A stretch of 52,789 nucleotides of DNA. Source: Desulfobacterales bacterium (GTDB lineage: Bacteria > Desulfobacterota > Desulfobacteria > Desulfobacterales > JAHEIW01). Under the pieces are notes generated by a model, which was not told the DNA's origin, did no database searches, and was given only the letters and a program-made list of their open reading frames with translations. A program made the position numbers and the translations under genes. Shown here piece after piece: positions 16,405 through 35,766 of the stretch (position 1 is the first letter of the stretch; the number at the start of each line of letters is the position of its first letter). The DNA lies in assembly GCA_041559695.1 (NCBI GenBank), contig JBFFCW010000001.1, forward strand, positions 1 through 52,789. The letters run 5' to 3'.

Positions 16405-16454
16405 ATTGCAATAGTCCATTGGATGATTTTTGTTGGCATGCGGGTCTATTTTGG
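16405..16454 (-). promoter_or_regulatory. Conserved ~50-bp operator/promoter box, copy A, upstream of mttC-mttB
   Basis: The minus strand reads CCAAAATAGACC-N12-AAAATCATCCAATGGACTATTGCAAT. The same 12+12+26 layout occurs in copies B-D and E. A TTGCAA hexamer is followed 17 bp later by TATGCC. Confidence 0.6.
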
Positions 16455-16605
16455 TTTCCATTGAGCCTGATAAGGATTTGTATATATATATGATATTTTA
16501 AAATTTTTGTAAACGCTCAGCCACCAGCACGCAACGGCATCTACTGTTTCCTGTGGAATGATTGTCGATTTAAGGTGTTCTGTCAATCTTAATTGGCAAA
16601 CAGTT

Positions 16606-16655
16606 AAAAAATAGTCCCGCATCCTTTTGAAAATCATCCAATGGACGATTGCAAT
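16606..16655 (+). promoter_or_regulatory. Conserved operator/promoter box, copy B, upstream of mtmC-mtmB
   Basis: AAAAAATAGTCC-N12-AAAATCATCCAATGGACGATTGCAAT. TTGCAA, then 17 bp, then TAATTA (16672-16677). It is divergent from copy A. Confidence 0.6.
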
Positions 16656-16975
16656 TCTATTACACCTTGACTAATTAAACTTCTTATTATTAACTGGCCG
16701 AACTAGCGCCTTTTGCAGACAAGAGGCGGCAACGGCCAATCGGCAGCCTGCCGTTTCAGTTACTGAATTCGGGAAAGTTTAGATTCTACCTCGATTGAGC
16801 GTTTTTTGAAAAGAAGTGTACCGGATTTGTGTCCATCAGGATTTGCGAAAACCGCAGGCATACCTGTGGCCAGATCGATGATTTTCGTCCCGCCCAGGCG
16901 AGAATGCGCAAGAGACCGGTACGTCTCAAGCAAAAAATCGCTCAATTCAGGTCCTCATGAAAGGAGGTGAAATTA

Positions 16976-17614
16976 ATGTCTGAAAAGGAAATGTTCGAGC
17001 GTTTGAAAAAAAGCGTTATTGATATGGACGAGGAGGGCGCCAAGGCGGCGGCCAATGATGCGATCGCACAAAAGCTTGATCCCCTTGCCTGTATTGAAGG
17101 GGGTTTGTCCGCAGCCATGAAGGTGATCAGCGACAAGTTTGATAGCGCCGAGATTTATGTGCCGCAGATCATTCTTGCGGCCGAGGCCTTTACAGCCGCC
17201 GTAGACATTCTGGCATCCCACATCGAGGGAGGCTACGCCGGCAAGGGTAAAATTATCCTTCATACCGTTGAAGGGGACATTCATGACATCGGCAAAAACA
17301 TTGTCGGGATCCTGTTGCAGGCCAACGGCTTTGAGGTTATCGATTTAGGGCGGGACGTGGCTGTCGTTGATGTGGTTGACGCAGCCGTTGAGAAGGGTGT
17401 TGATGTGATTGCCGGTTCGGCTCTGATGACGACCACGATGCCTGCTCAACGGGAGATCATGGATGAGTTGAAAGACCGCGGCATCAAGGACCAATTCAAG
17501 TGCCTCTTTGGTGGCGCCCCCACGAGTCAGGAATGGGTGGACCAGATCGGCGCTGATGCATGGGCGGAAAACGCCGCGGAAGCAGTGACTGTTGTCAACG
17601 AATTAACGAGCTAA
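16976..17614 (+). CDS. mtmC: B12-binding corrinoid protein (MtmC-like)
   Basis: GDIHDIGK, SALMTTT and GGAPT motifs. AAGGAGGTGA at 16961-16970 precedes ATG 16976. The ORF track's start at 16967 lies inside the RBS. Confidence 0.85.
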   Translation: MSEKEMFERLKKSVIDMDEEGAKAAANDAIAQKLDPLACIEGGLSAAMKVISDKFDSAEIYVPQIILAAEAFTAAVDILASHIEGGYAGKGKIILHTVEGDIHDIGKNIVGILLQANGFEVIDLGRDVAVVDVVDAAVEKGVDVIAGSALMTTTMPAQREIMDELKDRGIKDQFKCLFGGAPTSQEWVDQIGADAWAENAAEAVTVVNELTS

Positions 17615-17641
17615 ACGTTTTAGCGGAAAGGAGGGATATAC

Positions 17642-19027
17642 ATGGCTTTCAAAGAGAAAGTGGGCGTGTTCGAAACTTATGATCGAGCACGCACCGGTCC
17701 CAGGGTCGATGAAAAGGAATGGGATCGAAAGATCACATTTCAAACGGCAAGCAAGTTAAAGGAAAAATACAAACTTAAATTCGACCGATCCAAGATCATC
17801 CCCACTGATACCGACATGATAGATCGATTATACCAGGCCGGTCTTGAAATGCTTGTGGAAATGGGTGTTTTTTGCATGGATACGGGTCGCGTCATCAAGT
17901 ACACTGAAGATGAAGTCCTGATGGCTGTTGCCGGAGCGCCTCATGAGCTTACGTTGGGTGAAGGTCGCGATGCGCGCCAGCTGGCAGGCAGAAGTTTCGA
18001 TGATCCCCGCCCACCCCTGAATCAAGGTGGTCCTACCGGGGCTCCTGTATCGGAAAACATTTTTATTCCCATGCATGAGGCCTACGCTAGAGAACCTTTG
18101 GTAGATGCCATCGTTAACGGGGTCTTGTCCACCATCAACGGCAGGGAGCCTAAGCCCGGTTCTCCATGGGAGATAGCCGCCGTCAAAGGAGAGGTCTCAA
18201 TGATCCGGATGGCGATGACGCGGGCCGGTCGTCCCGGCATGGCCATGTAGGGGAGCGAAACATCACTGACTGCCGCCGGTGTGGTGGCGGCTGATTTTCC
18301 TGGGGGCATGAGAGCCTGCGACAGCCACGAAGTGAGCCAATTAAACGAGCTTAAAATTGACATCAATGCGCTCACCTTCACGGCACATTACAGGTTAGCG
18401 GGCGACATCATCATGAGCGAGCAGATGCCAATCATTGGGGGCTGGGCCGGAGGGGTCGAGGAGACCTCTATCGTGAACGTCGCCACCCATTTGGCCGCTT
18501 TTATTATGGTCGGAGCGGACTGGCATTTGGACGGACCCATTCACGTACGCTGGGGCAACACCACGGCCAGGGAGCCGTTGATGGTTGCCGGCCATGCGTG
18601 TCGGGCTGTGGATCGCAATACGCACCTGTTGCTGGGAAATCAGTACTATACCTCCGCGGGACCTTGCACTGAAATGTGTCTGCTGGAAGCGGCGGCCCAG
18701 GCCATAACGGATACGGCCAGTGGCCGCGAGATCATGAGCGGATGCGCTTCGGCCAAAGGCGTGGCCCTGGATTATACCACCGCCATGGAAGCCCGGTTCA
18801 TGGCTTACGCAGCCAGAGCGGTGGCGGGAGTCGAAACTGAAAAGGTCAATGCGATGCTGGATAAGCTGGTGAGCATGTATGAGACCAAGTTCAAAGAGGC
18901 GCCCAAAGGCAAGACCTTTCAAGATTGCTACGATGTGAGCACCCTGACGCCTTCCGATGAGTATTTGAAGGTGTTTGATGGCGCGCTTAAAACCATGGAG
19001 AAAATCGGATTTAAATTTAAAATTTAG
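17642..19027 (+). CDS. mtmB: Monomethylamine:corrinoid methyltransferase MtmB with in-frame UAG (Pyl) at 18248-18250, codon 203
   Basis: ORFs 17642-18250 and 18281-19027 are in the same frame. AGRPGMAM-TAG-GSETSLTAAG..DSHEVSQLNELKID matches M. barkeri AGRPGMGV-Pyl-GPETSLSAQG..DSHEVSQLNELKID. The remainder is also colinear (GPCTEMCLLEAAAQAITDTASGREI). Confidence 0.9.
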
Positions 19028-19059
19028 AAAGATGGTGGTGCGCCGAGTTGAAGATTGAG

Positions 19060-19092
19060 TTTGTGCCGGAGATCTACATCCTCCGGCACAAA
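19060..19092 (+). terminator. Perfect 12-bp stem-loop after mtmB (terminator or processing hairpin; no clear U-tract)
   Basis: TTTGTGCCGGAG-atctacatc-CTCCGGCACAAA. Confidence 0.35.
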
Positions 19093-19143
19093 TAATCTCC
19101 TTGATCAATGAATTAAAAATCTGCTATCGACAAAGGACACAAA

Positions 19144-19458: not shown

Positions 19459-19480
19459 TCAGCAATTGTATTTATAAAGT

Positions 19481-19531
19481 CCAAAATAGACCTTGATTAT
19501 TATCAACATCCTCCAATGTAATGATTGCAAT
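19481..19531 (+). promoter_or_regulatory. Conserved operator box, copy E (degenerate, 1-nt insertion), upstream of ABC importer 1
   Basis: CCAAAATAGACC-N12-AACATCCTCCAATGTAATGATTGCAAT. The distal 12-mer is identical to that of copy A. Confidence 0.45.
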
Positions 19532-19690
19532 TTCTTCAACATATGATTTCTCAGATCTATTTCTTAAAAATAAGTGACGAGTGATCATTTTTTGGCAAGA
19601 GAGGACATTAAATGGAGAGGTTTTTTTTGGGTAAGCCCTCTTTATTCATTGCTCCAATCAATCAATAATCTATATCAAGGAGGTGGCGTT

Positions 19691-20965
19691 ATGGGTATTA
19701 CAAGGAGAGACTTTTTAAAAGCCGCAGCCGCTGGCACCGTATTAACAGGAATTGGGCTGCCAGGGATTGCATTCGGAGCCAATAAAACGGTAAAAATCGG
19801 CTTTTTAGCACCCCTCACAGGGGAGGTTGCCGGATGGGGCCTCCCGGGGCTTTATGGATGTGAGATCTGGGCAGAGTGGGTCAATGCCGCCGGCGGGATC
19901 AAAATCGGCGGCGATAATTATATGGTAGAATTTGTCTCATTTGACAATGAGTACCTGCCGGATAAAGCCCTGCAGGGCGGCAAAAAACTGGTCACGGAAG
20001 AAGATGTCAAATTCGTCATGATGCTCGGGGGGTCTACCTGGCCGGGAGTGCAGAAGTTTTTCAGCCGCAAAAAGATGCTTTCCAGCACCCTGCTGCCCAG
20101 CGATTTAAACCCCGATTCCCCGTATCATCTGGCGCCCTGTGAAGTTCATCCGATCTATAACATTACCGGTGTGGAATGGTTGGCCGAAAAGTTCCCAAAA
20201 GCGAAAAGAGCTGTCATCTGCGCCCAGGACGACGAATTGGGGATTCCTTCAGTTGCAACCTACCGGGCAGCGTTTGAAGTGGCCGGAATCGAGGTCATCG
20301 GAGAAAACATCTTCGATATCGCAACGACCGACTTTGCCCCCATCGTGACATCGTTGCTGGCTGAAAAACCGGATATTTTCTGCTTTGATACGGCCTATAC
20401 CGACTATGTCAACCTGATTGCGGTACAGCTTTATGAGCAGGGATACAAAGGCAAGATGATATCCTGCACCCTGGATAACTACCCGGCCATCATCGATAAG
20501 ACCAGCAAGGAATTTTTAGAAGGCTTTATTTTCCAGTTTCCGGATTTCGATGACCCCGCGCTCAACCAACCGCACATCAGCTTCAAAAACCCCAATAAGT
20601 TCTTTCAAGAGTACAACAAAAAACATCCGGCATCATGGACGGCGGTTTCATACGAGTATGCCTCCATCATGGACCTGTGGAAAGCGGGGGCTGAGAAAGC
20701 CGGGAGCGTAGAGCCCATGGCGGTATTTGAGGCGATGAAAGGTATGAAGACATTGCCGCATATATTCGGCCCGGCACAGTGGTGGGGCAAAGAGCTTTGG
20801 GGCATCGATAATGCCCTGGTGGGCAATTGGCCCGTGGTAACCATTCAAAACGGCAGAGCCAGGATTGTGGAGTACAAAAATATCCCGCGGTGGTGGGCCA
20901 AGCACAAAGATGTCTATATCAAGCACATGGAGAAGCTGAACCAAATGTGGTATCAGCAAAAGTGA
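19691..20965 (+). CDS. Periplasmic substrate-binding protein, LIV/amide/urea (Peripla_BP_6-like) family, with Tat signal
   Basis: MGITRRDFLKAAAAG twin-arginine leader after the GGAGGTGG RBS. VKIGFLAPLTGEVAGWGLPG is typical of family-4 substrate-binding proteins. Paralogue of the 27782 gene. Confidence 0.8.
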   Translation: MGITRRDFLKAAAAGTVLTGIGLPGIAFGANKTVKIGFLAPLTGEVAGWGLPGLYGCEIWAEWVNAAGGIKIGGDNYMVEFVSFDNEYLPDKALQGGKKLVTEEDVKFVMMLGGSTWPGVQKFFSRKKMLSSTLLPSDLNPDSPYHLAPCEVHPIYNITGVEWLAEKFPKAKRAVICAQDDELGIPSVATYRAAFEVAGIEVIGENIFDIATTDFAPIVTSLLAEKPDIFCFDTAYTDYVNLIAVQLYEQGYKGKMISCTLDNYPAIIDKTSKEFLEGFIFQFPDFDDPALNQPHISFKNPNKFFQEYNKKHPASWTAVSYEYASIMDLWKAGAEKAGSVEPMAVFEAMKGMKTLPHIFGPAQWWGKELWGIDNALVGNWPVVTIQNGRARIVEYKNIPRWWAKHKDVYIKHMEKLNQMWYQQK

Positions 20966-21012
20966 TGAGACATCATCCATCGCTGGCATGCTGCAACCTG
21001 TAAATGACCAAT

Positions 21013-21041
21013 GGGATCCAGGCGCTCAGCGCCTTGATCCC
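21013..21041 (+). terminator. Attenuator or terminator hairpin between the substrate-binding protein gene and the permease genes
   Basis: GGGATCCAGGCGC-tca-GCGCCTTGATCCC (13-bp stem, 1 mismatch), followed by ATTTATT. Confidence 0.45.
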
Positions 21042-21068
21042 ATTTATTGAGGAAAGGGGGAAGACCGC

Positions 21069-21938
21069 TTGGAAGTCGTTTTGCAGACCTCTGTAAATGC
21101 CCTTGTGGCGTGCGGATTTTCTGCACTCATGGCCGTAGGGCTCGTCATGATTTTTGGTGTGATGGGGATCGTGAATTTTGCCCACGGAGAGCTTTTTATG
21201 GCCGGGTCGTACACGGTGTGGTATCTCTATTCCATATCCGGCTGGCCGTTTATTCTCGCGGTTTTGGGAGCGCTCGTTGTCGTCATGGTGATTGGCCTGT
21301 TGATGGAACGCGGACTTTTCCGTCCCATGCGCGATAATCCGCTTGGCGGGCTCATTAACTCCATCGGCGTATTATTCATTCTCCAGGTGCTGGCCGTCAA
21401 AATCGGCGGATTGGGTTTGATGAAACATGTTCCGCCGGCCTTCCCCGGAGTCTGGGAGATTGTTGAGGGCGTCATGCTTTCAAAACAACGGCTTGTGGCC
21501 CTAATCATGGCTTCGGTTCTATTGTTTCTGATTTGGTTGTTTCTTACCCGCACAAAACTCGGTTGGGCGCTGCGCGCTACTGCACAGGACAGGGAGGCGG
21601 CGGCGTTGCAAGGGATCAACATCAATCGAATTTCAATGATCGCAATGGCGATGGGCGCCGGTGCCGCCGGGGTAGCCGGTGCACTCATGGCCCCCCTGAC
21701 CCGTGTACAGCCCTATATGGGTCATACCGTCATCATTACCGCATTTATCGTGACCATCGTCGGTGGCCTTGGAAGCCTTTCGGGCGCCATCTTGGCGGCT
21801 GTCCTTTATGCGTTTTTTCATACCTTTGTGACCACTTATTATGGGGGCGTCATCGCTACGATATTAGGACTCTTAATCATGCTCGTTGTTCTCATTGTTA
21901 AACCAACCGGACTAATGGGAACCCAAACAACTGAGTAA
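21069..21938 (+). CDS. ABC permease, LivH type
   Basis: Polytopic membrane protein with FAHGELFMAG and AAALQGININ motifs. TTG start. Confidence 0.8.
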   Translation: MEVVLQTSVNALVACGFSALMAVGLVMIFGVMGIVNFAHGELFMAGSYTVWYLYSISGWPFILAVLGALVVVMVIGLLMERGLFRPMRDNPLGGLINSIGVLFILQVLAVKIGGLGLMKHVPPAFPGVWEIVEGVMLSKQRLVALIMASVLLFLIWLFLTRTKLGWALRATAQDREAAALQGININRISMIAMAMGAGAAGVAGALMAPLTRVQPYMGHTVIITAFIVTIVGGLGSLSGAILAAVLYAFFHTFVTTYYGGVIATILGLLIMLVVLIVKPTGLMGTQTTE

Positions 21939-22010
21939 TTTACGTCCCGAAAATTGTGCAACTTAGTGAAGTTAACGGAATTTATTGAGACGTGGTGCTT
22001 TCCACTCACA

Positions 22011-22159
22011 CATGGAATAATGGAATGATGGAAGATTGGAATGTTGATTTTAAAGGAATTTTTTGAATATTCGGATAATAGCAACTTGGGTGTCCATAAG
22101 AAAATAGCCAATGAACCCATATCCCGGTTTTCCAGAACCCAATATTCCAACATTCCAAT
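22011..22159. repeat. GGAAT-rich repeats and a 12-bp inverted repeat inside an unusual 259-bp livH-livM spacer
   Basis: GGAATAATGGAATGATGGAAGATTGGAATG at 22013 onward. ATTGGAATGTTG (22035-22046) and CAACATTCCAAT (22148-22159) form a perfect inverted repeat. Confidence 0.6.
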
Positions 22160-22197
22160 TGTGAGCGAAGCGAACTAGCTTGTAGTGAGCGTGAGTA

Positions 22198-23184
22198 ATG
22201 GCTAACAAACGAGTGTACAAAGCGTTGGGGTTGGTTGCACTGTTCGTCATCCTGGCAGTGCTTCCCTTCAAACTGAAATTCCATCAACAGGATTTTATGA
22301 TTTTCCTGTTGATAAATATCCTGGTGGTAGCCAGCTATCGCCTCATGACCCTCACCGGTGAATGGTCACTCATACATGTTGTCTTGATGGGTGTCGGTGG
22401 GTATTCCAGTGCGTTGTTGGCGAAAAATTTTGCCCTGTCTTTCTGGCTGACCATGCCTTTAGCGGGAATCATCTGCGCCCTGCTCGCTGTTCTCCTCAGC
22501 GTCCCCCTCTTTCGCATGAAGCAGTTCTATTTTCTGATTGGCTCGTTTGCGGCCGGAGAAGCGATCCGCCTGGCCTGGGTCTATTTCAAAGTGCCCTTTG
22601 GGGGGGCGAAAGGGATCAAGCACATCCCATCGCCGAAAATTGTGTTTCCGGGCCTCAAGGAGGCAATTGAGATCTGGGAGCCAATCCCTTACTATTTCCT
22701 GACACTCGCAATCGTGACGCTGTGCTTATGGGTTCTTTATCGCCTCGAATACTCGCGTATTGGGTTGACGCTGCATTCTGTTCACTGGCGCGATGCGCTC
22801 GCAGAGTCCGTTGGCGTCAACACCTGGCGATACAGAACCCTTGCGTTTGGCGTTGCTTCATTTTTCGCCGGTATCGCCGGGGCGCTGTTTGCGCACTATC
22901 TGGGGTCGCTCAATCCCGCCCAGTTTGGTGTGGGCCTGATGGTTTATGTGCTGATATGGGTGATTGTCGGCGGCACAGCGACGTTCTACGGCCCCATCAT
23001 TGGGGTAACGGTTTTATCGTTGGTCAATGAATGGTTCCGCGCCTTTGAGATATGGCGCCCGGCCATTTACGGCTGTATCTTGATTGCCTCCATCATGTTC
23101 CTGCCCGACGGATTGGAGAGCCTTCCCGCCAAATTACGAAGCGGTTTCAACCGCTTGCGCGGTAAGGAAAAAATGAATGCCTGA
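22198..23184 (+). CDS. ABC permease, LivM type
   Basis: Polytopic membrane protein. Paralogue of 30033-31034. Confidence 0.8.
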   Translation: MANKRVYKALGLVALFVILAVLPFKLKFHQQDFMIFLLINILVVASYRLMTLTGEWSLIHVVLMGVGGYSSALLAKNFALSFWLTMPLAGIICALLAVLLSVPLFRMKQFYFLIGSFAAGEAIRLAWVYFKVPFGGAKGIKHIPSPKIVFPGLKEAIEIWEPIPYYFLTLAIVTLCLWVLYRLEYSRIGLTLHSVHWRDALAESVGVNTWRYRTLAFGVASFFAGIAGALFAHYLGSLNPAQFGVGLMVYVLIWVIVGGTATFYGPIIGVTVLSLVNEWFRAFEIWRPAIYGCILIASIMFLPDGLESLPAKLRSGFNRLRGKEKMNA

Positions 23185-23352
23185 GCCACCGATAGGGGAA
23201 ATCAGAAGAAATCGGAGCAGGCAACGATACCATTGAGATTAAAATCCGGGTGACTGCTTCACAGACCACCGTAAGGATTGTTTAAGCGATGCGTTCTGAT
23301 TGAGGACAGACTTTTGCAATGTGTTTACGGTTAGGATGGGAGAAGACCGCCA

Positions 23353-24105: not shown

Positions 24106-24106
24106 A

Positions 24107-24814: not shown

Positions 24815-24867
24815 CGGTTTGCCGTAAATTTGTCATTTGCCCATTGGTCGTTGATGATACATAACAC

Positions 24868-27544: not shown

Positions 27545-27594
27545 AAAAAATAGTCCCCCACGCTTAGAAAAATCGTCCAATGGACTATTGCATT
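27545..27594 (+). promoter_or_regulatory. Conserved operator/promoter box, copy C, upstream of ABC importer 2
   Basis: AAAAAATAGTCC-N12-AAAATCGTCCAATGGACTATTGCATT. TTGCAT, then 17 bp, then TATTTA (27611-27616). Confidence 0.6.
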
Positions 27595-27781
27595 TTATTA
27601 TCATGTAAAATATTTAAATCTCGGCTGTATTGCGCCCATAAAACGGGGGGTATAAAGCTGGGATTCAAAATATCACGACTGAATAATATAAAAGTGGCAC
27701 TAAGGAGGTGATAAAGCGCCGGCAAGGAAAAGCGTAATTAAACTTTAAATGGACTCAATTGTTGGCACGGAGGTGATTACA

Positions 27782-29089
27782 ATGAAAAAGAAAAAAATAT
27801 TTGGCCTTTCTGTCCGTATCCCGCTGTTATTGGCATTAATAGTGACTTTCTCTGTCGTCAGCGGCACGACCGCGCTATCGGCAGAAGATACGATTAACAT
27901 TGGTTTTCTGGCGGCTTTATCGGGACCCGACGCCGGATGGGGCCTGCCGGGACTTACCGGAAATCAGATCTTTATCGACAGGGTCAACGCCGAGGGGGGG
28001 CTTTTAGTCGGCGGGAAGCGATATAAGCTTAAGATGCATGCCTTCGACGATGAGGCAACCGGCAGTAAGGCCCTGCAGGGTGCCCGGCAACTGGTTTTGG
28101 AACATGACGTCAAATTTATCAGCGCCATTGGCGGGACTCCCGCTGACGCCACACACCCGTTTCTCACCAAGAAGAAGGTCTTCTACGCCACGCTGATATC
28201 GACGGACATCATGCCGGACAGACCATACTTGATCGGGGGCGGAGATGTGACCCCCAGAATCGATATGTTAAGGCCCTGGTATCACAAATTTAATAATCCC
28301 AAGTTAAAGAGATGGGCGGTCACTTCTCAAGACGAGACCATCGGCCGCACCTGTCAGGCCTGGGAGGTGGGATCAGCCATCGCTGAGGGCTGGGATGTCG
28401 TCTATGACAAGCATTTTTCTTTGGAGACCACCGATTTCGCTCCGGTGGTGACTGCCATTTTGGCCACCAAGCCCGACGTGGTCAGCCTGAACCTTACCTG
28501 GCCCGATTTTGTTACCCTGATCATCGAGCAGCTATACCTCCAGGGCTACAAGGGGATCATATCGGCCAACTATATCGACACGGAATCCGTTATGCAGAAG
28601 GTGCCGATCGAGTATATGGAGCTTACCAAAAGCGCCAACAGCTTTCCCCTGTTCGATGACCCCTGGTGGGGAGAGCAATCCTGGCAGCACGAGTTTATCA
28701 AAGAGTGGAATGCCAAATTCGGTCCGGGCGCCCCCCAGGATGTGAAACGTAAAATAACCGGGATCGACTGGGACCACGTGATCATGCTCATGGTGTGGGC
28801 CCATGGGGCCCAGCTGGCAGGCTCCTTTGACCCGGATGAGATCTTAAAAGCGCTGCGGGCGGCACCGATGATTCCCACCATTTTGGGACCGGCCGTGATG
28901 TACGGCAAAGAGATGTGGGGCATCGATAACATGGTATCGCCCCCTGTTCCGATCGCCGAGGTAAAGGCGGACTGCAAATGTAAGCGTATTCAAGCCCATA
29001 TTAAATTCGAAGAGTGGTTCGAATCGAGAAAGGATACGATCATCAAAGTGGTCAAAGAAAAAGGGCAGTACTTTGACCAGCGGAAATAA
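27782..29089 (+). CDS. Periplasmic substrate-binding protein, LIV/amide/urea family, with Sec signal
   Basis: MKKKKIFGLSVRIPLLLALIV signal after the GGAGGTGA RBS. INIGFLAALSGPDAGWGLPG. Paralogue of the 19691 gene. Confidence 0.8.
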   Translation: MKKKKIFGLSVRIPLLLALIVTFSVVSGTTALSAEDTINIGFLAALSGPDAGWGLPGLTGNQIFIDRVNAEGGLLVGGKRYKLKMHAFDDEATGSKALQGARQLVLEHDVKFISAIGGTPADATHPFLTKKKVFYATLISTDIMPDRPYLIGGGDVTPRIDMLRPWYHKFNNPKLKRWAVTSQDETIGRTCQAWEVGSAIAEGWDVVYDKHFSLETTDFAPVVTAILATKPDVVSLNLTWPDFVTLIIEQLYLQGYKGIISANYIDTESVMQKVPIEYMELTKSANSFPLFDDPWWGEQSWQHEFIKEWNAKFGPGAPQDVKRKITGIDWDHVIMLMVWAHGAQLAGSFDPDEILKALRAAPMIPTILGPAVMYGKEMWGIDNMVSPPVPIAEVKADCKCKRIQAHIKFEEWFESRKDTIIKVVKEKGQYFDQRK

Positions 29090-29099
29090 CAGGGAAAAT

Positions 29100-29129
29100 A
29101 CAAGGGGCGGCATCTTTGTCGTCCCTTGT
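29100..29129 (+). terminator. Attenuator or terminator hairpin after the substrate-binding protein gene
   Basis: ACAAGGG..CCCTTGT stem followed by TTTTG. It occupies the same position as the hairpin in importer 1. Confidence 0.4.
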
Positions 29130-29176
29130 TTTGTAACAATACAGTCGAGAATCGATCTTAAAGAGCAGAGAAAAAT

Positions 29177-30046
29177 ATGGAACTGGCAACTTTTATACAA
29201 ACGATAGCGAATTCCGTGGTCGCAGGATCCATTTACGCCACCGTCGCCGTGGGATTGGCCTTGGCTTTTGGGGTCATGCAAATGGCCAATCACGCCCACG
29301 GCGAGTTCTTCATGTTAGGGGCCTATGTGGTATACGTATTCTACGCTTTGGGTGGGATGCCTTTCCCTTTCGCCGTACTATTGGCCATTCCAACGATTGC
29401 CGTTATTGGTTTATTGACCGAGCGATTAATTTTCCGGCCCACCAGGGGAAATGTTCTGGCCGGGTTTATGGCAACGGCCGGGTTAACCTGGATTTTACAG
29501 GTAGCCGCGGGGCGGATTTGGGGGTTGGCTTTTATGAAAAAAATACCCACACCGTACATGGGCGCAGCAACCATTGCCGGCGCCCAGATCGGTCTGCAAA
29601 GAGTTATCATCATACCGGCTGCCTGCATCCTGCTCGGGCTGCTTTGGTTCTTCCTGTATCGGGTTAAGCTAGGCAAGGGGCTGCGCGCCTGCGCCCAAGA
29701 TCCGGAAGCCGCTGCGTTGCAAGGGATCAGCATTAACAAGATGACGGCCCTTGCCATGGGCATCGCCGGGGCATATGCCGGAGTGGCCGGAGCCCTCATG
29801 GCACCCATCCATGCCGTTACCCCCTATATGGGCCGCGATCTTCTGATTACCGCTTTTATCGTCGTCATCGTAGGGGGGATGGCAAGCATCGAGGGCGCTG
29901 TTTTAGCCGCTTTTCTTTTAGGCTTTATACACACCTTTATCACCACCATATTCGATGCAACGTCGGGTGTTATGGTCGGCGTTGCGTTTATGGCTTTTAT
30001 CTTAATCGTAAAACCAACGGGGTTAATGGGCCGTGTCAAAGCATAA
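29177..30046 (+). CDS. ABC permease, LivH type
   Basis: Paralogue of 21069-21938 (HAHGEFFMLGAY, AAALQGISIN). Confidence 0.8.
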   Translation: MELATFIQTIANSVVAGSIYATVAVGLALAFGVMQMANHAHGEFFMLGAYVVYVFYALGGMPFPFAVLLAIPTIAVIGLLTERLIFRPTRGNVLAGFMATAGLTWILQVAAGRIWGLAFMKKIPTPYMGAATIAGAQIGLQRVIIIPAACILLGLLWFFLYRVKLGKGLRACAQDPEAAALQGISINKMTALAMGIAGAYAGVAGALMAPIHAVTPYMGRDLLITAFIVVIVGGMASIEGAVLAAFLLGFIHTFITTIFDATSGVMVGVAFMAFILIVKPTGLMGRVKA

Positions 30047-31034
30047 GGTATTATCAATAATCGGTGTAACGGCATTGCTTGGCGTCATGAGTGTCCTGCC
30101 GTTTTTTGCCAGAGAATACCATGTTGAAATTCTGATCATATTCCTGATTAACGTCATCCTCGCGACAAGCTACCGGCTGATCGCTACAACCGGAGACTGG
30201 ACGCTTTGCCATGTGGTTTTGTTGGGTGTGGGCGCTTACGCCAGTGCCCTCATGGCCAAGCATTTTGGTTGGCCCTTTTGGATGACCGCGCCACTGGCAG
30301 GCGCAACTGCAGGACTGGTTGGTTTGGGAATTGTGTATCCGCTGCTGAGGACCGTGGGTTTCGGCTTTTTTATTGCGTCTTTAGCTATCGGGGAATTCAT
30401 CAGACTCATCTGGATCAAGTTCCACACTCCTTTCGGAGGTCCCCGCGGTATGATAAACATTCCCTATGTGGGCGAATTAGGACCGATCGATTTCTATGAA
30501 GCCATCCCTTACTATTTTATGACGCTGGTGATCACCTTGGTGTGCGTGATCATTATGTATCGAATTGACAGATCGCGCATCGGGGATACCTTCAAATCGA
30601 TTTATGAGGACGATATTTTGGCAGCGTCTATCGGCATCAGGGTCGGGCGATACAGAAGTTTGGCTTTTGTCCTCGGCTCTTTTTTCGCCGGAATCGCCGG
30701 TGCTCTCATGGCGCATCGGCTCAATGCCATAGACCCGCATATCTTTGGCCTGGATGAAATGGTGTATCTCCTTGTTTGGGTGGTTGCAGGGGGCACGGCC
30801 ACCTTTGCAGGTCCTATCATCGGGGTTGCCGTGATGAGTTTTCTCTTTGAATGGACGCGTCCGCTGCTGGAATGGCGGCCCTTATTCTTTGGCGCTATCT
30901 TGATCGGGTTTTTGATATTTATGCCGGGCGGGCTCGAGAGTTTGATTCCGAAATTTACACGCCTGTTTGGAAACCGAAATGCGGTGCCGGCGAAGGCCGA
31001 GCAGCCCGCAGGAGCAAAAGAGCCCGTTGTTTAA
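30033..31034 (+). CDS. ABC permease, LivM type
   Basis: The GTG start overlaps the end of livH by 14 nt. Paralogue of 22198-23184. Confidence 0.8.
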   Translation: MSKHKVLSIIGVTALLGVMSVLPFFAREYHVEILIIFLINVILATSYRLIATTGDWTLCHVVLLGVGAYASALMAKHFGWPFWMTAPLAGATAGLVGLGIVYPLLRTVGFGFFIASLAIGEFIRLIWIKFHTPFGGPRGMINIPYVGELGPIDFYEAIPYYFMTLVITLVCVIIMYRIDRSRIGDTFKSIYEDDILAASIGIRVGRYRSLAFVLGSFFAGIAGALMAHRLNAIDPHIFGLDEMVYLLVWVVAGGTATFAGPIIGVAVMSFLFEWTRPLLEWRPLFFGAILIGFLIFMPGGLESLIPKFTRLFGNRNAVPAKAEQPAGAKEPVV

Positions 31035-31184
31035 AACCCATGACGACCAGGGGCTTCCTGTAAGCCTTGGAGGCGCGCCGCGTATGAATTGAACGCTTTG
31101 GGCAGCAACGCTGTCCGGAAAAAGCGGTGTTGTCTGACTTGAGATCATTGTTCTATTTCAGATAAGAAGGGGGAAAAAGCGCTT

Positions 31185-31979
31185 ATGGCAATGTTCGAGG
31201 TGAAAAGTTTAAGCAAAAATTTCGGAGGGTTGACGGCTATAAGCGAGCTGGATCTGGAAGTGGAGGCGAGCGAGATCAGAGGCGTCATCGGACCGAATGG
31301 GGCGGGGAAAACAACCCTATTTAACGTTATCAGCGGGGTTTATCGGCCCACCAAAGGAAAAATAATATACCAGGAAGAAGAATTATCCGGCCTCAAAGCA
31401 AGTCAAATAGCGGAAAAAGGCGTTGTGCGAACTTTTCAGAGAACGGCCCTTTTCCATAAATTCACTGTTCTGGGCAATGTGCTGGTGGCCCGCCATTTAC
31501 AGGCCAAGGGAGGGCTTTTCAAGACCATATTCGGAACAAACCGGCGCATTGAACAAGCACATGAGAAGAAGGCCATGGAAATCATCGACTTTATGGGCCT
31601 GTCGGACCTCAAGGACGAACTGGCCTATAACCTGCCGCATGGCCATCAAAGGGCATTGGGTATTGCCATTGCGCTGGCTGCTGAGCCCAAACTGCTCATG
31701 TTGGATGAACCAGTTACCGGCATGGATCCCACGGAAACGCATCACATGACAGGCTTAATCAAAAAGGTGCGTGATCAATGGGGAATGACGATTTTACTGG
31801 TAGAGCATGATATGAAGGTGGTGATGGGCATCTGCGATAAGATAAGCGTTCTGAATTTCGGGAAAAAACTGGCCGAAGGTCTACCTGAAGAAATACAGGC
31901 GCACCCGGACGTTATCGAGGCCTATCTGGGCGGAGAAGAGGTTGCGACCTTATTGGGCGGAGAAGCGGTTGCGGCCTAA
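31185..31979 (+). CDS. ABC ATPase, LivG type, with a C-terminal extension created by a 22-nt tandem duplication
   Basis: GPNGAGKTT and LLMLDEP. The 3' end carries GGGCGGAGAAGAGGTTGCGACC (31928-31949) and GGGCGGAGAAGCGGTTGCGGCC (31955-31976). Confidence 0.85.
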   Translation: MAMFEVKSLSKNFGGLTAISELDLEVEASEIRGVIGPNGAGKTTLFNVISGVYRPTKGKIIYQEEELSGLKASQIAEKGVVRTFQRTALFHKFTVLGNVLVARHLQAKGGLFKTIFGTNRRIEQAHEKKAMEIIDFMGLSDLKDELAYNLPHGHQRALGIAIALAAEPKLLMLDEPVTGMDPTETHHMTGLIKKVRDQWGMTILLVEHDMKVVMGICDKISVLNFGKKLAEGLPEEIQAHPDVIEAYLGGEEVATLLGGEAVAA

Positions 31980-31995
31980 CGAAGAGGGGGAAAAA

Positions 31996-32703
31996 TTGCT
32001 GCTCAATGTCAAAGACATTACCGTTCATTATAAAAAGGTGGACGCTATTCGTAACATCTCCATTGAAGTGGAACAGGGCGAAATCGTTACCCTTATCGGT
32101 TCCAACGGGGCCGGCAAGACGACCACTTTAAGAACCATTTCAGGGCTCAGTCATCCGACAACCGGCGAAATCTGGTTTGAGGGTCAGCGCATCGACAAAA
32201 AGCCTCCGGAAAAAATAAACAAAGCCGGAATTGCTCAAGTCCCGGAAAACAGAAGAGTTTTTCCCTATATGACGGTTGCGGAAAACCTGGAAATGGGAGC
32301 TTTTCTGCGTAAAGATGAAGAAGGGATGAATCGGGACCTGGAAGGGGTTTTCAAGCATTTTCCCATACTGAAGTTACGTCAGAAGCAGATGGCGGGCACA
32401 ATGAGCGGCGGTGAACAGCAGATGCTGGCCATGGGCCGCGCCCTGATGTCCAATCCGAAACTGCTGCTATTAGATGAACCTTCATTGGGTTTGTCCCCGA
32501 TTATGTGCCTTGAAATCGCCAAAATCATAAGGGACATTCACAACGAAGGCAACACAATTGTCCTGGTGGAGCAAAATGCCCGTCTTGCACTGGCTCTGGC
32601 CCAGAAGGGCTACGTCCTGGAAACCGGGAATATCGTCCTGAAAGGTGATGCAAAAGAGTTACGTGACAATGAGAAGGTGAAGAATGCTTATTTGGGTGGC
32701 TGA
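31996..32703 (+). CDS. ABC ATPase, LivF type
   Basis: A TTG start after GAGGGGGA is preferred, by analogy with the N-terminus of 24107 (LLL..DI.VHY). GSNGAGKTT and MSGGEQQMLAMGRAL. Confidence 0.8.
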   Translation: MLLNVKDITVHYKKVDAIRNISIEVEQGEIVTLIGSNGAGKTTTLRTISGLSHPTTGEIWFEGQRIDKKPPEKINKAGIAQVPENRRVFPYMTVAENLEMGAFLRKDEEGMNRDLEGVFKHFPILKLRQKQMAGTMSGGEQQMLAMGRALMSNPKLLLLDEPSLGLSPIMCLEIAKIIRDIHNEGNTIVLVEQNARLALALAQKGYVLETGNIVLKGDAKELRDNEKVKNAYLGG

Positions 32704-32729
32704 CCGCACAAAAGGAGGCAAAAAAAACG

Positions 32730-33230
32730 ATGGCAACGGAAAGCACCTTGAAAGACAAGACCGTCCTGATTGTCGATGACGAGCCTGATGTGCTTGAGGT
32801 GGTGGCAGAGGAACTGGACATGTGCCTGGTTCACAAGGCCCAGGATTACAAAACCGCCCTGCAATATCTCGCCAGCTACAACTATGATATTGTCATCCTG
32901 GATATTATGGGGGTTAACGGTTTTGAACTTTTAAAAGAAGCCGTATCCAGGGGGTTTCCTGCCGTCATGCTCACTGCTTATGCTGTTTCACCGGAATCGT
33001 TGAAAAAATCCATTAAGCTCGGCGCCGTTTCTTTCCTTCCCAAGGACAAAATTGTGGAGCTCAGTTCATTTCTTGAAGATGTGGTCCTGGGTGGCGGCAA
33101 GCCGGTCTGGCATAAGGTTTTTGATAAATTAGGCGGATATTTTAAAAAACGATTCGGCCCCGATTGGGAAGAAAAAGACCAATTTTTCAAGGAATTTCAA
33201 GAAGCGTTTACAAAGAGCAAAGGTGACTAA
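32730..33230 (+). CDS. Single-domain receiver protein, paralogue of 25650-26153
   Basis: VLIVDDEPDVLE..DIVILDIMGVNGFELL, then GKPVWHKVFDKLGGYFKKRFGPDWEEKDQFFKEF. Confidence 0.75.
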   Translation: MATESTLKDKTVLIVDDEPDVLEVVAEELDMCLVHKAQDYKTALQYLASYNYDIVILDIMGVNGFELLKEAVSRGFPAVMLTAYAVSPESLKKSIKLGAVSFLPKDKIVELSSFLEDVVLGGGKPVWHKVFDKLGGYFKKRFGPDWEEKDQFFKEFQEAFTKSKGD

Positions 33231-35581
33231 TCCTGCGGGCTTTTAGGCGCGGGTGAAAAGTAAATTGAAAAAGCCGTTCCGCCTGAGCCATAACAATCCT
33301 CCTGTCTTTTGCAATGGGTGCACTCGCTGATATTGTCCGGGCAAATATCACTTTCCTGCGGTATGTATCCACATCGCGAGGTGTCCACGTCTATTTTAAA
33401 ATGATAGCGCTCCGAAAAGATTTTCATCCGCAACAGATCCACCCCTTTGCCTCCGGCACTGAAGTCAAAGGGGGTTTTGGTTGAATAGGCCATGGTATCG
33501 TGGGTTGTAAAAAAGCCCTCAAATATCCGTTTTTTGTTTTCTTGCGTAACGCCGACACCGTAATCACGAACCACAAGCGCAGTGCCCTGCCTTTTTTTTT
33601 GGACACTCACCTCCACCTTCCCCTCATCCGGCGTGTTTTCCACGGCATTGCGAATCAGACCATCAACGATCTTTTGCAGAACATATACCGGAATGCATAT
33701 GGCCGGCGCCGGCTCCAGCCGGCTGATGATGTTCATCTGGCGGTGGGAAAAGGACGGGCTCAAATGCTCGAGCCTTTGCTTGACAAATTCATTCAGCAGA
33801 ATGTTTATCGAAACAAAATCACTGGAACCATATATGGCGTCAATCCGGTTTCTTACACGCTTTAAAATCGGCTGCTCACCGCCTTCGTCGGTGAGCAGCG
33901 CATCCAGTTCATCGATGCACTGATCGAGTATGTTCGAAAGAACCTGATGATGGGTGTTATACTGCTTATTTCGCATGATGTCTTCCACAACGTATTGAAT
34001 CTCCATAATGCGATTCAGATTCCGTCGGGCCCTTTCCATTACGGCGGTCCAATCCTTCGGGGGCAGCGCCGCCATTTTTTTTGCCAGAGAGCGCAGGGAA
34101 AGGGAAAGGACGGAGACCGGGGTTTTCAATTCATGCGATAAGTGACTGATAACCTTGTCTTTGGCCCGATTCAAACTCATGACTTCCCGGTGGGCTTGCT
34201 TTATTTCCTCGGAAAACCTGGCGTTCTCAATGGAAAGGGCGACGGTTCCCGATATCATACTCAACAGCTCAATATCGGTTTGATCAAAGACCCCTTCCTT
34301 CTTGTTGATGGCGCATAACACCCCGATCGTGCGATCGCTGCTTTTTAAAGGCACCTCAAGAAGGTTCCGGGTATGGTATCCGAATTGCTTGTCTCTTTCG
34401 GGATAAAGATCGGGGTCCTTGGAGGCATCGGGCACAATAATCGGCTCACCGGTCTGAATGACCTTTCCCGCGACGATTTGATCCATATGAAAACGCGTTT
34501 CCTTGACCCTTTTTTGGGTGGTCATATCATCATAAGCCGCACCGGGAAAATAAAGCTCCTGACGCTTTTCATCCAGCAATATAACAAGGGCGCCTTCGGA
34601 GCCCAGGAGCCGCTTGACCTCGCTGCTGATAAAATCCAAAAGGCCTTCCAGATCAGGATGTTCCGGAAGTGCCATGCTGATCCGGCGCATCACCCCCTTG
34701 TTTCGCGCAATACCCTTTTCCAGGGTGATATCTCTGAGGATAATGAGCGCTCCAGCCGGTTCGCCTTTGGACTCGGTATAGACAACACCCCTGGTCACGA
34801 CGTCCAGAATCCGACCATCTTTTGTCATCCGTTTGGTTTCATACGGAAAGAGCCCGCCTTCTTCGAGGAGTCTCCGGAAGCTTTCACCGGCTTCCAACTC
34901 AATTTCCGGGGATCCATAGGGGAGTTTCTTTCCCTTTAGTTCCTCAATGGTCCAGCCGAAAAGTTTTGTGAAGGATGGGTTCAGATAGGAAACCCGGCCG
35001 TCCAGGTTAAATACCACAATCGGGCTGGGAACCACATCCAACAAAGCCCTGAATCGTTTCTCCGACTCGCGCAGGGCCTCCTCGGCAAGCGTCCGCTCGG
35101 TGATATCGGTGATGAAACCCTCTAAGGCCAGCAGGTCGCCGTTCTCCACAAACACCCCTTGACCCTGTTCCCAGACCCATTTTTCCCGACCTGAAGCCGT
35201 TTGGATGCGGTATACCATCCGGAAGGGCTGACGTTTCGCCAGGGCTTTCTGTACCTGCTTCCAGGCAGACTGACGATCATCGGGATGGATCAACTCACTG
35301 TAAGAAAGCGTCCGATTTCCAATCAGCTCCGAAGGGGCATAACCGGTCAGCTCATAGCACCCCTCGCTAATGAATTCCATGGTCCAGTTTTCATCGTTCA
35401 GACAGCGATAAGCCATGCCCGGCAGATTGCCGATCAGTGTGGACAGCACCCGTTGGCTCTCATGCAGCGATTCCTGGGTTTGAGCATGCTTGATTTCACA
35501 GGCTTCCAACTCGGATATCCGCCGACGCAATTCGGTCAGCTCATTTTCGAGTTGTTCTTTGGATTTATTTTCCTTTTTCAT
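33227..35581 (-). CDS. Sensor histidine kinase (coiled coil, two PAS domains, GAF, HisKA, HATPase, Cys-rich tail)
   Basis: H-box ISHLSHELKTP and ATPase DYGVGV. The tail reads CPDNISECTHCKRQEDC. No transmembrane segment. It converges on the 32730 receiver gene with a 4-nt overlap. Confidence 0.8.
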   Translation of the reverse strand: MKKENKSKEQLENELTELRRRISELEACEIKHAQTQESLHESQRVLSTLIGNLPGMAYRCLNDENWTMEFISEGCYELTGYAPSELIGNRTLSYSELIHPDDRQSAWKQVQKALAKRQPFRMVYRIQTASGREKWVWEQGQGVFVENGDLLALEGFITDITERTLAEEALRESEKRFRALLDVVPSPIVVFNLDGRVSYLNPSFTKLFGWTIEELKGKKLPYGSPEIELEAGESFRRLLEEGGLFPYETKRMTKDGRILDVVTRGVVYTESKGEPAGALIILRDITLEKGIARNKGVMRRISMALPEHPDLEGLLDFISSEVKRLLGSEGALVILLDEKRQELYFPGAAYDDMTTQKRVKETRFHMDQIVAGKVIQTGEPIIVPDASKDPDLYPERDKQFGYHTRNLLEVPLKSSDRTIGVLCAINKKEGVFDQTDIELLSMISGTVALSIENARFSEEIKQAHREVMSLNRAKDKVISHLSHELKTPVSVLSLSLRSLAKKMAALPPKDWTAVMERARRNLNRIMEIQYVVEDIMRNKQYNTHHQVLSNILDQCIDELDALLTDEGGEQPILKRVRNRIDAIYGSSDFVSINILLNEFVKQRLEHLSPSFSHRQMNIISRLEPAPAICIPVYVLQKIVDGLIRNAVENTPDEGKVEVSVQKKRQGTALVVRDYGVGVTQENKKRIFEGFFTTHDTMAYSTKTPFDFSAGGKGVDLLRMKIFSERYHFKIDVDTSRCGYIPQESDICPDNISECTHCKRQEDCYGSGGTAFSIYFSPAPKSPQD

Positions 35582-35716
35582 TTGGCCGCACCCATATGAG
35601 CGATCATATTACCATAAACAAAGTGCAATTATAATTATTCTACCCAACATTCTCAACCCCAAAACCGTTGCACTCCTGATAATCCGTAAAAATGCCTTTT
35701 GTAGCGTCAATTAAAC

Positions 35717-35766
35717 TGAAAATAGTCCTGCGTGCTAATAAAAATCATCCATCGGACCATTGAAAT
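35717..35766 (+). promoter_or_regulatory. Conserved operator/promoter box, copy D, upstream of the mtrH-like operon
   Basis: TGAAAATAGTCC-N12-AAAATCATCCATCGGACCATTGAAAT. TTGAAA, then 17 bp, then TATACG (35783-35788). Confidence 0.55.

What the first reader, a model, noticed from the sequence alone, without database searches (positions are those of the whole stretch)
16405..35766. A ~50-bp box repeated five times defines a putative methylamine regulon that includes both ABC importers
Five intergenic regions carry the same layout: AAAATAG(T/A)CC, then 12 nt, then AAAATC(A/G)TCCAATGGACnATTGCAAT. Copy A is at 16405-16454 (minus strand, upstream of mttC). Copy B is at 16606-16655 (mtmC), copy C at 27545-27594 (importer 2) and copy D at 35717-35766 (mtrH-like operon). 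Copy E, at 19481-19531 (importer 1), is degenerate with a 1-nt insertion. The box contains a near-palindrome (G/A)TCCAATGGAC. It also contains an outer inverted pair, ATAGTCC ... GGACTAT, whose centres are ~32 bp (three helical turns) apart. That fits an operator for a dimeric or tetrameric regulator. The proximal TTGCAA, TTGCAT or TTGAAA hexamer is followed after exactly 17 bp by a TA-initiated hexamer in copies A-D. These are weak -10 candidates, so the promoter assignment is tentative. The implied leaders are long: about 300 nt for mttC and mtmC, and 150-250 nt for the others. Candidate regulators in the window are the NarL-type regulator (3947-4642) with its kinase.
Basis: seen in the sequence. 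Interest (0 to 1): 0.7.

Follow-up and report, generated by a model that had tools for sequence, protein, structure and literature searches.

The report
Conserved promoter box for methyl-transfer operons
A 50-bp DNA box in front of five operons for methylamine use is a real regulatory site, conserved across uncultured Desulfobacterales (sulfate-reducing bacteria), and is most likely the promoter and docking site of a NarL-type response regulator encoded in the same window.

Summary
Four intact copies (A-D) and one decayed copy (E) sit at the stated coordinates, each pointing at the downstream operon. There are no further copies in the window.

Public-data scans found 72 distinct boxes, all but one in Desulfobacterales-type contigs. 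Where enough sequence was available, almost all lie upstream of eight gene types:
- MtrH-type methyltransferase operons
- acsE-CFeSP
- URO-D/corrinoid/RACo modules
- mttC and mtmC
- the two LivK-type importers

Positions that the search pattern did not fix are still conserved: A18, T19, G21, T25, and T42/A43 at a fixed 17-bp spacing from TTGCAA. Flanks are unconserved. So the box is three half-sites (ATAGTCC, about 21 bp, ATCATCC-N3-GGACTAT) fused to a promoter.

In 24 boxes an ortholog of the window's NarL-type regulator (3947-4642) and its kinase ends 20-229 bp upstream. Starting from the regulator instead, 4 of 8 loci carry the box.

"Methylamine regulon" is too narrow: this is a regulon of corrinoid-dependent methyl transfer. 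Binding, activation and the signal are inferred only. It is a new member of a known kind. Interest is moderate.

The parts
16405..16454 (-). Box A, upstream of mttC. H1 AAAATAGACC 16452-16443. H2-N3-H3 core AAAATCATCCAATGGACTAT 16430-16411. -35 TTGCAA 16411-16406.
   Evidence: PWM 43.4 bits
16383..16388 (-). Inferred -10 of box A (TATGCC), 17 bp after TTGCAA.
   Evidence: T42/A43 conserved in 59/62 and 56/62 copies
16606..16655 (+). Box B, upstream of mtmC and divergent from A. H1 16608-16617, core from 16630, -35 TTGCAA 16649-16654.
   Evidence: PWM 41.8 bits. The same divergent mttC/mtmC box pair occurs in L028, L064, L072, L073.
16672..16677 (+). Inferred -10 of box B (TAATTA).
19481..19531 (+). 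Box E, decayed. H1 19483-19492 and H2 19505-19514 are kept. H3 is GTAAT with a 1-nt insertion. The -10 position reads TTCTCA.
   Evidence: aligned with intact boxes in front of the orthologous importer in L027, L029, L048, L076
27545..27594 (+). Box C, upstream of importer 2. H1 27547-27556, core from 27569, -35 TTGCAT 27588-27593, -10 TATTTA 27611-27616.
   Evidence: 38.1 bits; orthologous boxes before SBP2 in 8 loci
35717..35766 (+). Box D, upstream of the MtrH-corrinoid-RACo-URO-D operon. H1 35719-35728, core from 35741, -35 TTGAAA 35760-35765, -10 TATACG 35783-35788.
   Evidence: 38.3 bits; orthologous boxes before MtrH in 23 loci
2053..3954 (+). Sensor kinase: PAS-GAF-HisKA_3-HATPase. No transmembrane segment, so probably cytoplasmic.
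   Evidence: orthologs lie upstream of boxes elsewhere
3947..4642 (+). NarL/FixJ-type response regulator (REC with D12 D13 D58, plus a GerE/LuxR HTH). It is the proposed protein that binds the box.
4732..16100 (-). Gene string downstream of box A, all on the minus strand: mttC, mttB (Pyl), URO-D, RamA-like, mtbC, mtbB (Pyl), DUF2284, AAA-VWA, pylB.
   Evidence: No intergenic terminator-like site on the minus strand. A single transcript is inferred, not shown.
16977..19027 (+). mtmC-mtmB (Pyl codon TAG at 18251), downstream of box B.
19574..24814 (+). LivKHMGF-type ABC importer 1, downstream of the decayed box E.
27749..33230 (+). LivKHMGF-type ABC importer 2 plus a 166-aa receiver-only protein, downstream of box C.
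36018..43111 (+). MtrH-family methyltransferase, corrinoid protein, 1150-aa RACo fusion, MtaA/CmuA-family URO-D and DUF2284, downstream of box D.

Best explanation
Each box is a composite, activator-dependent promoter.

**Anatomy.** It carries three 7-bp half-sites on one face of the DNA helix.
- H1 is ATAG(T/A)CC.
- H2 is ATC(A/G)TCC, 21-22 bp downstream of H1 and in the same orientation. Each of H1 and H2 is preceded by an A-tract.
- H3 is GGAC(T)AT, inverted, 3 bp after H2.
- H3 runs into a -35-like TTGCAA, which is followed after 17 bp by TAT.

**Proposed mechanism (inferred).** The cytoplasmic PAS-GAF kinase (2053-3954) phosphorylates the NarL-type regulator (3947-4642). A regulator dimer occupies the H2/H3 palindrome, centred about 43 bp upstream of the inferred start. 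A further subunit or dimer sits on H1. The bound regulator recruits RNA polymerase to an otherwise weak promoter.

**Scope.** The module is shared across Desulfobacterales, where it drives operons for corrinoid-dependent methyl transfer. In this genome it is wired to four intact promoters: mttC through pylB, mtmCB, importer 2, and the MtrH operon. A fifth, in front of importer 1, has decayed.

**Shown:** the box, its conservation, its gene context and its synteny with the regulator. **Inferred:** binding, direction of control, transcription start and signal.
For: **The box is real and under selection.**
- Four copies score 38-43 bits against a shuffle maximum of 17.3.
- 72 distinct boxes occur in genomes and metagenomes.
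- In 62 dereplicated copies, positions the search did not fix are conserved: A18 and T19 in 62/62, G21 in 60/62, T25 in 57/62, T37 in 54/62, T42 in 59/62, A43 in 56/62.
- Flanking positions carry only 0-0.3 bits in the same copies.
- The distance from the regulator site to TA is fixed. This fits a stereospecific contact with RNA polymerase.

**Gene context is specific.** MtrH 23, acsE-like 15, SBP2 8, SBP1 4, mttC 6, mtmC/mtbC-type 6, URO-D modules 5. Pfam confirms Pterin_bind, CdhD and CdhD+FeS after the box in L013 and Pterin_bind in L089.

**The regulator is linked to the box.**
- Orthologs of the window's regulator and kinase end 20-229 bp upstream of 24 boxes, on the same strand.
- Starting from regulator orthologs, the box follows immediately in L021, L023 and L090. 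In L089 it lies 9 kb away, in front of a Pterin_bind gene.
- The recognition helix STVKTHR(A/S)NIMEKL is nearly invariant in 30 distinct orthologs.
- It is the only protein with a recognised DNA-binding domain among the roughly 40 main ORFs of the window that were scanned.
- It is a full-length NarL/LiaR/DevR-type regulator.

**The basal promoter looks weak.** The consensus scanner does not call it. This fits dependence on an activator.
Against: - No binding, expression or 5'-end data exist for these uncultured organisms.
- The last position of the -10 is T in only 17/62 copies. This is unusual for a sigma-70 promoter, so the promoter assignment could be wrong.
- A site overlapping the -35 is equally compatible with repression.
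- In the window the regulator lies 12 kb from the nearest box. Four of eight regulator-first loci show no canonical box within the sequence available.
- Synteny could instead mean that the two-component system belongs to the regulon rather than ruling it.
- Many of the 62 copies are orthologs, so they are not independent observations.
Confidence: 0.6

Rival explanations
1. The same box and the same regulator, but acting as a repressor-operator. The regulator sits over the -35 and blocks RNA polymerase until a signal removes it.
For: The palindrome overlaps the -35-like hexamer. Many NarL-family proteins can repress (established knowledge).
Against: - The basal promoter is weak. The -35 matches 4 of 6 positions, the -10 lacks the final T, and the consensus scanner does not call it. 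Little would need repressing.
- The site-to-TA distance is invariant in 59/62 copies. A simple steric block would not require this.
Confidence: 0.2
2. The box is a promoter-operator bound by a different transcription factor encoded outside the window. The NarL-type system sits next to it only because it belongs to the same metabolic island.
For: - In the window the regulator is 12 kb from any box.
- Two regulator-first loci (L020, L091) show no box within 10 kb.
- Two receiver-only proteins and a second kinase lie among the box-controlled operons.
Against: - 24 boxes start 20-229 bp after the stop codon of a regulator ortholog.
- No other DNA-binding domain is found in the window.
- The receiver-only proteins have no detectable DNA-binding domain, even at E up to 10.
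- A 7-3-7 inverted repeat suits a LuxR-type HTH dimer.
Confidence: 0.12
3. The box acts as RNA. It would be the 5' end of a conserved leader, forming a hairpin or riboswitch-like element that controls the long leaders.
For: Leaders are 90-440 nt long. The core is a near-palindrome that could form a hairpin.
Against: - No Rfam family is found in the window or in 11 related loci, apart from PYLIS elements and one unrelated cobalamin riboswitch.
- The would-be stem has two conserved mismatches. C5 opposite T17 is unpaired in 48/62 copies. A6 opposite C16 is unpaired in 52/62.
- The sequence after +45 is not conserved.
- The mttC leader folds no better than shuffles (z = -0.65).
Confidence: 0.03
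4. The box is a generic dispersed repeat or a remnant of a mobile element, with no regulatory role.
For: It is a multi-copy sequence of about 50 bp containing inverted repeats.
Against: - It is always intergenic and oriented toward the downstream gene.
- It is restricted to eight related gene contexts.
- It is absent from 2.9 million viral contigs.
- Only about 45 bp is conserved, and the flanks are unrelated.
Confidence: 0.02

Closest known systems
NarL/NarP operators of E. coli (inverted heptamers, '7-2-7')
   Same: The regulator has REC plus a GerE/LuxR HTH and is paired with a HisKA_3 kinase. NarL structure 1a04 matches at 2.9e-33. The operator is built from 7-bp half-sites and includes an inverted pair.
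   Different: The half-site sequence (ATAGTCC) and the spacing (7-3-7) differ. There is an extra direct half-site two helical turns upstream. The kinase is cytoplasmic with PAS-GAF, not a periplasmic nitrate sensor. The NarL equivalog model scores 145.9, below its cut-off of 250.
LuxR-type class II activation (lux box centred near -42.5, overlapping the -35)
   Same: A palindrome of about 17-20 bp abuts and overlaps a weak -35. Its centre is about 43 bp upstream of the inferred start. The basal promoter is weak. The lux box position is recalled from established knowledge, not tested here.
   Different: The regulator here is a phosphorylation-controlled response regulator, not an autoinducer receptor. 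The transcription start is not mapped.
LiaR/VraR cell-envelope stress regulators
   Same: This is the closest solved structure (5hev, 1.7e-41, full length). From memory, these regulators bind a primary palindrome plus an adjacent secondary site after phosphorylation-driven oligomerisation. That would resemble H2/H3 plus H1.
   Different: The regulon and the signal are unrelated. The comparison of operator layouts rests on recollection only and was not tested.
MctS/MctR two-component system (NCBIfam NF052443 and NF052445)
   Same: These are the best-scoring named family models for both the kinase and the regulator.
   Different: Both scores are far below the equivalog cut-offs (187 against 300, and 154 against 700). 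The window proteins are not members.
Substrate-dependent expression of methylamine and pyrrolysine genes in methanogens and Firmicutes
   Same: The outcome is the same in function: conditional expression of Pyl-containing methyltransferases. PMC8318568 cites Prat et al. 2012 for transcriptional feedback that controls Pyl use in a Firmicute.
   Different: No shared regulator or motif is known. PMC8318568 notes only an uncharacterised 'transcriptional regulator' near the deltaproteobacterial mttB.

Membership tests
NarL/FixJ-family two-component regulon | Regulator with a receiver domain, conserved phospho-acceptor Asp and a LuxR/GerE HTH | tested here: met
   Pfam Response_reg 1.6e-28 and GerE 2.5e-21. 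D12, D13 and D58 are read from the sequence.
NarL/FixJ-family two-component regulon | Adjacent cognate HisKA_3 histidine kinase | tested here: met
   HisKA_3 2.1e-19 plus HATPase_c. The kinase gene overlaps the regulator gene by 8 nt. The pair is conserved in relatives.
NarL/FixJ-family two-component regulon | Operator made of short half-sites, including an inverted pair sized for an HTH dimer | tested here: met
   ATCATCC-N3-GGACTAT plus ATAGTCC 21-22 bp upstream.
NarL/FixJ-family two-component regulon | The regulator physically binds the operator in a phosphorylation-dependent way | not testable with these tools
   Only synteny supports it: 24 boxes directly follow the regulator gene.
Sigma-70 promoter with a class II activator site | -35 and -10 hexamers at 16-18 bp spacing | tested here: inconclusive
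   TTGCAA-like hexamer, then 17 bp, then TAT is conserved (T42 59/62, A43 56/62). The final T of the -10 is present in only 17/62 copies. The consensus scanner does not call these sites.
Sigma-70 promoter with a class II activator site | Activator site centred near -41.5 relative to a mapped start | not testable with these tools
   The centre is computed at about -43 from the inferred -10. No 5'-end data are available.
Sigma-54 promoter | GG and GC elements about 12 nt apart start to start (TGGCAC-N5-TTGC) | tested here: not met
   In TGGACnATTGC the GG and GC are 8 nt apart (sequence).
Known cis-regulatory RNA (Rfam) | Match to a curated covariance model at gathering score | tested here: not met
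   The only hits are PYLIS elements inside genes and one cobalamin riboswitch elsewhere in L068.
MctSR system (NCBIfam equivalogs) | Score at or above the curated cut-off | tested here: not met
   187.1 against 300 for the regulator, and 154 against 700 for the kinase.
Dispersed repeat or mobile element | Copies scattered regardless of gene context or orientation | tested here: not met
   67 of 72 boxes lie upstream of eight related gene types, all oriented toward the gene. There are none in viral contigs. A whole-genome count in a single genome was not possible.

The most novel reading that the evidence does not exclude
The box and its two-component system act as a master switch that senses an intracellular state of methyl-group or corrinoid metabolism, not methylamine itself. 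Across Desulfobacterales the switch co-ordinates every corrinoid-dependent route into methyl-tetrahydrofolate, including acsE-CFeSP of the Wood-Ljungdahl pathway. In this lineage it also gates expansion of the genetic code. The pyrrolysine biosynthesis gene pylB is the last gene of the string downstream of box A, so UAG would be read as pyrrolysine only when the regulon is on.
Probability: 0.2. Interest if true: 0.7.

Novelty: new member of a known kind. Interest (0 to 1): 0.5.

Why it matters
Methylamines are usually treated as substrates that methanogens do not have to share with sulfate reducers. These Desulfobacterales carry pyrrolysine-dependent methylamine methyltransferases. How they control them was not described in any paper found in the searched library.

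The finding gives three concrete handles:
- a precise motif;
- a named candidate regulator and kinase;
- a predicted regulon that links methylamine genes, two importers, an MtrH-type methyl-corrinoid module and, in relatives, the acsE-CFeSP operon.

This makes regulation in uncultured sediment bacteria directly testable. It offers a motif for finding further regulon members in MAGs. It also suggests how imported methylamine and Pyl genes were wired into an older regulatory circuit.

Tried and rejected
- **Sigma-54 promoter.** Rejected on the spacing of the GG and GC elements.
- **Known RNA families.** Rfam at gathering score on the window and on 11 related loci gave nothing in the leaders.
- **Structured mttC leader.** The fold is no better than shuffles. 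ARAGORN found no tRNA gene in the window.
- **Receiver-only proteins (166/167 aa) as the DNA binder.** Pfam on the whole proteins and on the 64-65-aa C-terminal segments, at E up to 10, found no DNA-binding domain. NCBIfam matched only the receiver domain of the 166-aa protein.
- **Sensor domain of the kinase against the PDB.** Only a weak generic PAS hit came back, so the ligand remains unknown.
- **Sigma-70 consensus scanner.** It does not call the box promoters. It does find a near-consensus promoter for the 784-aa kinase on the other strand.
- **Autoregulation.** No box lies upstream of the kinase-regulator operon, in the window or in L023.
- **Second mtbB cluster (46961-48792).** It has no box. 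It has a different heptamer-repeat element instead.
- **Chance matches.** Three of nine genome-scan hits (L012, L015, L019) and one metagenome hit (L074) were chance matches and were discarded.
- **Not possible.** Genome-wide box counts in a single genome, the organism name for the window's MAG (GCA_041559255.1 and relatives), and any expression data.

Full report
**Observation**

- The core TCCAATGGACNATTG with up to two mismatches gives 5 hits against 0.63 expected.
- A weight matrix scores copies A-D at 38-43 bits. The best hit in shuffled windows scores 17.3. The matrix finds no further copy in the 52.8 kb.
- The repeat finder recovers the same copies independently (family D1; pairs I4, I5, I7, I10).
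- The inner palindrome, the outer inverted pair about 32 bp apart, and the 17-bp spacing to a TA-initiated hexamer are all confirmed from the sequence.

**Gene map**

The window is a methylotrophy island of a pyrrolysine-decoding bacterium (Pfam; NCBIfam; Rfam PYLIS hits).
- Box A faces a minus-strand string: mttC, mttB (Pyl), URO-D, RamA-like activase, mtbC, mtbB (Pyl), DUF2284, AAA-VWA and pylB. The pylB call rests on TIGR03910 at 440.7 bits, above its cut-off of 348.2.
- Box B faces mtmC-mtmB.
- Box E faces LivK-type importer 1.
- Box C faces importer 2 plus a 166-aa receiver-only protein.
- Box D faces an MtrH-family methyltransferase, a corrinoid protein, a 1150-aa RACo fusion, an MtaA/CmuA-type URO-D and DUF2284.
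- The only protein with a recognised DNA-binding domain among the ORFs scanned is the NarL-type regulator at 3947-4642. Its gene overlaps that of a PAS-GAF-HisKA_3 kinase. The kinase has no transmembrane segment.

**Comparative evidence for the box**

A degenerate pattern was scanned over one genome per species. It gave nine hits. Six carry the whole box, and all six come from Desulfobacterales or Deltaproteobacteria MAGs.

A second pattern scanned over metagenome contigs gave 65 loci. Together with the genome loci this makes 72 distinct boxes. There were none in viral contigs.

In 62 dereplicated copies, positions that the patterns did not fix are still almost invariant:
- A18 and T19 in 62/62
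- G21 in 60/62
- T25 in 57/62
- T37 in 54/62
- T42 in 59/62
- A43 in 56/62

Positions outside the box carry only 0-0.3 bits in the same sequences. The conservation is therefore selective and not just recent common descent.

The anatomy is as follows.
- H1 is ATAG(T/A)CC.
- H2 is ATC(A/G)TCC, in the same orientation as H1. In the 54 H1-anchored dereplicated copies it lies 22 bp downstream in 38 and 21 bp downstream in 16.
- H3 is GGAC(T)AT, inverted, after a variable 3-bp spacer.
- H3 merges into TTG(C/T/A)A(A/T). After 17 bp comes TA(T).

**Context of the boxes**

The first gene downstream of each box was classed by blastx against the window's proteins.

| Downstream gene type | Boxes |
|---|---|
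| MtrH-type | 23 |
| acsE-like pterin-binding methyltransferase, followed by both CFeSP subunits | 15 |
| SBP2 importer | 8 |
| SBP1 importer | 4 |
| mttC | 6 |
| mtmC/mtbC-type | 6 |
| URO-D/RamA | 2 |
| URO-D/corrinoid | 3 |
| Unclassified | 5 |

Of the five unclassified boxes, three have too little downstream sequence, one is a chance match, and one is a divergent variant.

Pfam confirms Pterin_bind, CdhD and CdhD+FeS after the box in L013, and Pterin_bind in L089. The divergent mttC/mtmC box pair recurs in L028, L064, L072 and L073. It also shows that the regulon reaches beyond methylamines, to corrinoid-dependent methyl transfer in general.

**Who binds**

- In 24 boxes an ortholog of the window's regulator ends 20-229 bp upstream on the same strand, preceded by the kinase ortholog. 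Identities are 71-79% for the regulator and 59-76% for the kinase.
- The reverse test started from eight regulator orthologs found by protein search.
  - The box lies directly after the regulator gene in L021, L023 and L090.
  - It lies 9 kb away, before a Pterin_bind gene, in L089.
  - L020 and L091 share the upstream layout of L089, and their flanks show no box.
  - L022 has the window's layout and the contig ends.
  - L092 has only a weak look-alike.
- The recognition helix STVKTHR(A/S)NIMEKL is nearly invariant in 30 distinct orthologs.
- The protein is a standard full-length NarL/LiaR/DevR-type regulator. It belongs to no named equivalog; the MctR model scores 187 against a cut-off of 300.

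It is not proven.

**Mechanism**

The palindrome centre lies about 43 bp upstream of the start implied by the TAT element, and it overlaps the -35. The basal promoter is weak. The -35 matches 4 of 6 positions. The last base of the -10 is T in only 17/62 copies. The consensus scanner does not call these promoters.

The invariant distance between the protein site and TA argues for a stereospecific contact with RNA polymerase. That means activation of class II type, as known for LuxR-type proteins (established knowledge). Repression cannot be excluded. The missing -10 T is a real weakness of the promoter assignment.

The signal is unknown. The kinase is cytoplasmic. The same module drives acsE-CFeSP and MtrH operons elsewhere. 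So an intracellular cue is at least as likely as methylamine itself (inference).

**Copy E and the leaders**

Copy E aligns base for base with intact boxes in front of the orthologous importer in L027, L029, L048 and L076. It has lost GGAC of H3 and TAT of the -10. Importer 1 is probably expressed weakly from this site, or by read-through from mtmCB (inference).

The inferred leaders are about 276 nt (mttC), 293 nt (mtmC), 126-159 nt (importer 2) and 223 nt (MtrH). About 205 nt of the mttC leader is an insertion flanked by duplicated GGAGGTGAT. It is absent from L028, L031, L057, L064 and L072. No known RNA family and no unusual folding stability was found.

**Novelty**

Searches of the paper library found no description of this motif. 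They also found no two-component system described for methylamine or corrinoid methyltransferase genes in these bacteria. The paper on Pyl-using marine Deltaproteobacteria mentions only an uncharacterised regulator near mttB (PMC8318568).

The kind of system is ordinary: a NarL-family response regulator with an operator-promoter. The regulon, the motif and its link to pyrrolysine-dependent metabolism are new. The verdict is a new member of a known kind, of moderate interest.

Noticed in passing
window 16110-16302 (minus strand), mttC leader: An insertion of about 205 nt lies between a first SD-like GGAGGGAGGTGAT and a second AGGAGGTGAT at the real mttC start. It is shared with L073, L062 and L044. 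It is absent from L028, L031, L057, L064 and L072. The duplicated ends look like a target-site duplication or a leader duplication. The fold is not unusually stable.
   Followed up: partly
window 49009-49052 and 49087-49118: Six tandem heptamers GTGTTTA face about four inverted TAAACAC heptamers. They lie in the intergenic region between the DUF1638/second mtbB cluster and a DUF169 gene. This is a different candidate operator, and this cluster has no box.
   Followed up: partly
window 4732-5859 (-): PylB (methylornithine synthase, above the equivalog cut-off) lies convergent to the NarL-type regulator and last in the minus-strand string below box A. The regulator/radical-SAM arrangement recurs in L022 and L092. 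No tRNA gene was detected in the window, so pylT was not found there, and no pylS, pylC or pylD gene was identified.
   Followed up: partly
window 25650-26153 (-) and 32730-33230 (+): Two paralogous receiver proteins of 167 and 166 aa (about 72% identical at DNA level) each lie next to one importer. Each has a conserved C-terminal tail of about 55 aa, rich in Phe, Lys and Trp, that matches no Pfam family. They may be connectors or phosphate sinks for the kinases.
   Followed up: partly
window 33227-35581 (-), promoter 35656-35628: A 784-aa PAS-PAS-GAF-HisKA kinase lies divergent from box D. It has its own near-consensus sigma-70 promoter (TTGAGA, 17 bp, TATAAT). The arrangement is conserved in L045, L047, L052, L080 and L087. 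No partner with a DNA-binding domain was identified.
   Followed up: no
window 37847-41299 (+): A 1150-aa fusion combines a RACo-type corrinoid activase (Fer2, linker, middle and C-terminal ASKHA domains) with an inserted Fer4_20/Pyr_redox_2 flavoprotein module. It is conserved in L023 and in several box D-type loci.
   Followed up: no
window 19574-20965 (+): The substrate-binding protein of importer 1 carries a twin-arginine (TAT) signal. Neither binding protein matches any substrate-specific NCBIfam model, so the transported compound is unknown.
   Followed up: no
L090 1978-7105; L068 8719-8927: In L090 the same kinase-regulator-box-MtrH module sits beside a methanol methyltransferase MtaB, a RACo activase and a sigma-54 activator. 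In L068 a cobalamin riboswitch lies downstream of the box-controlled operon.
   Followed up: no
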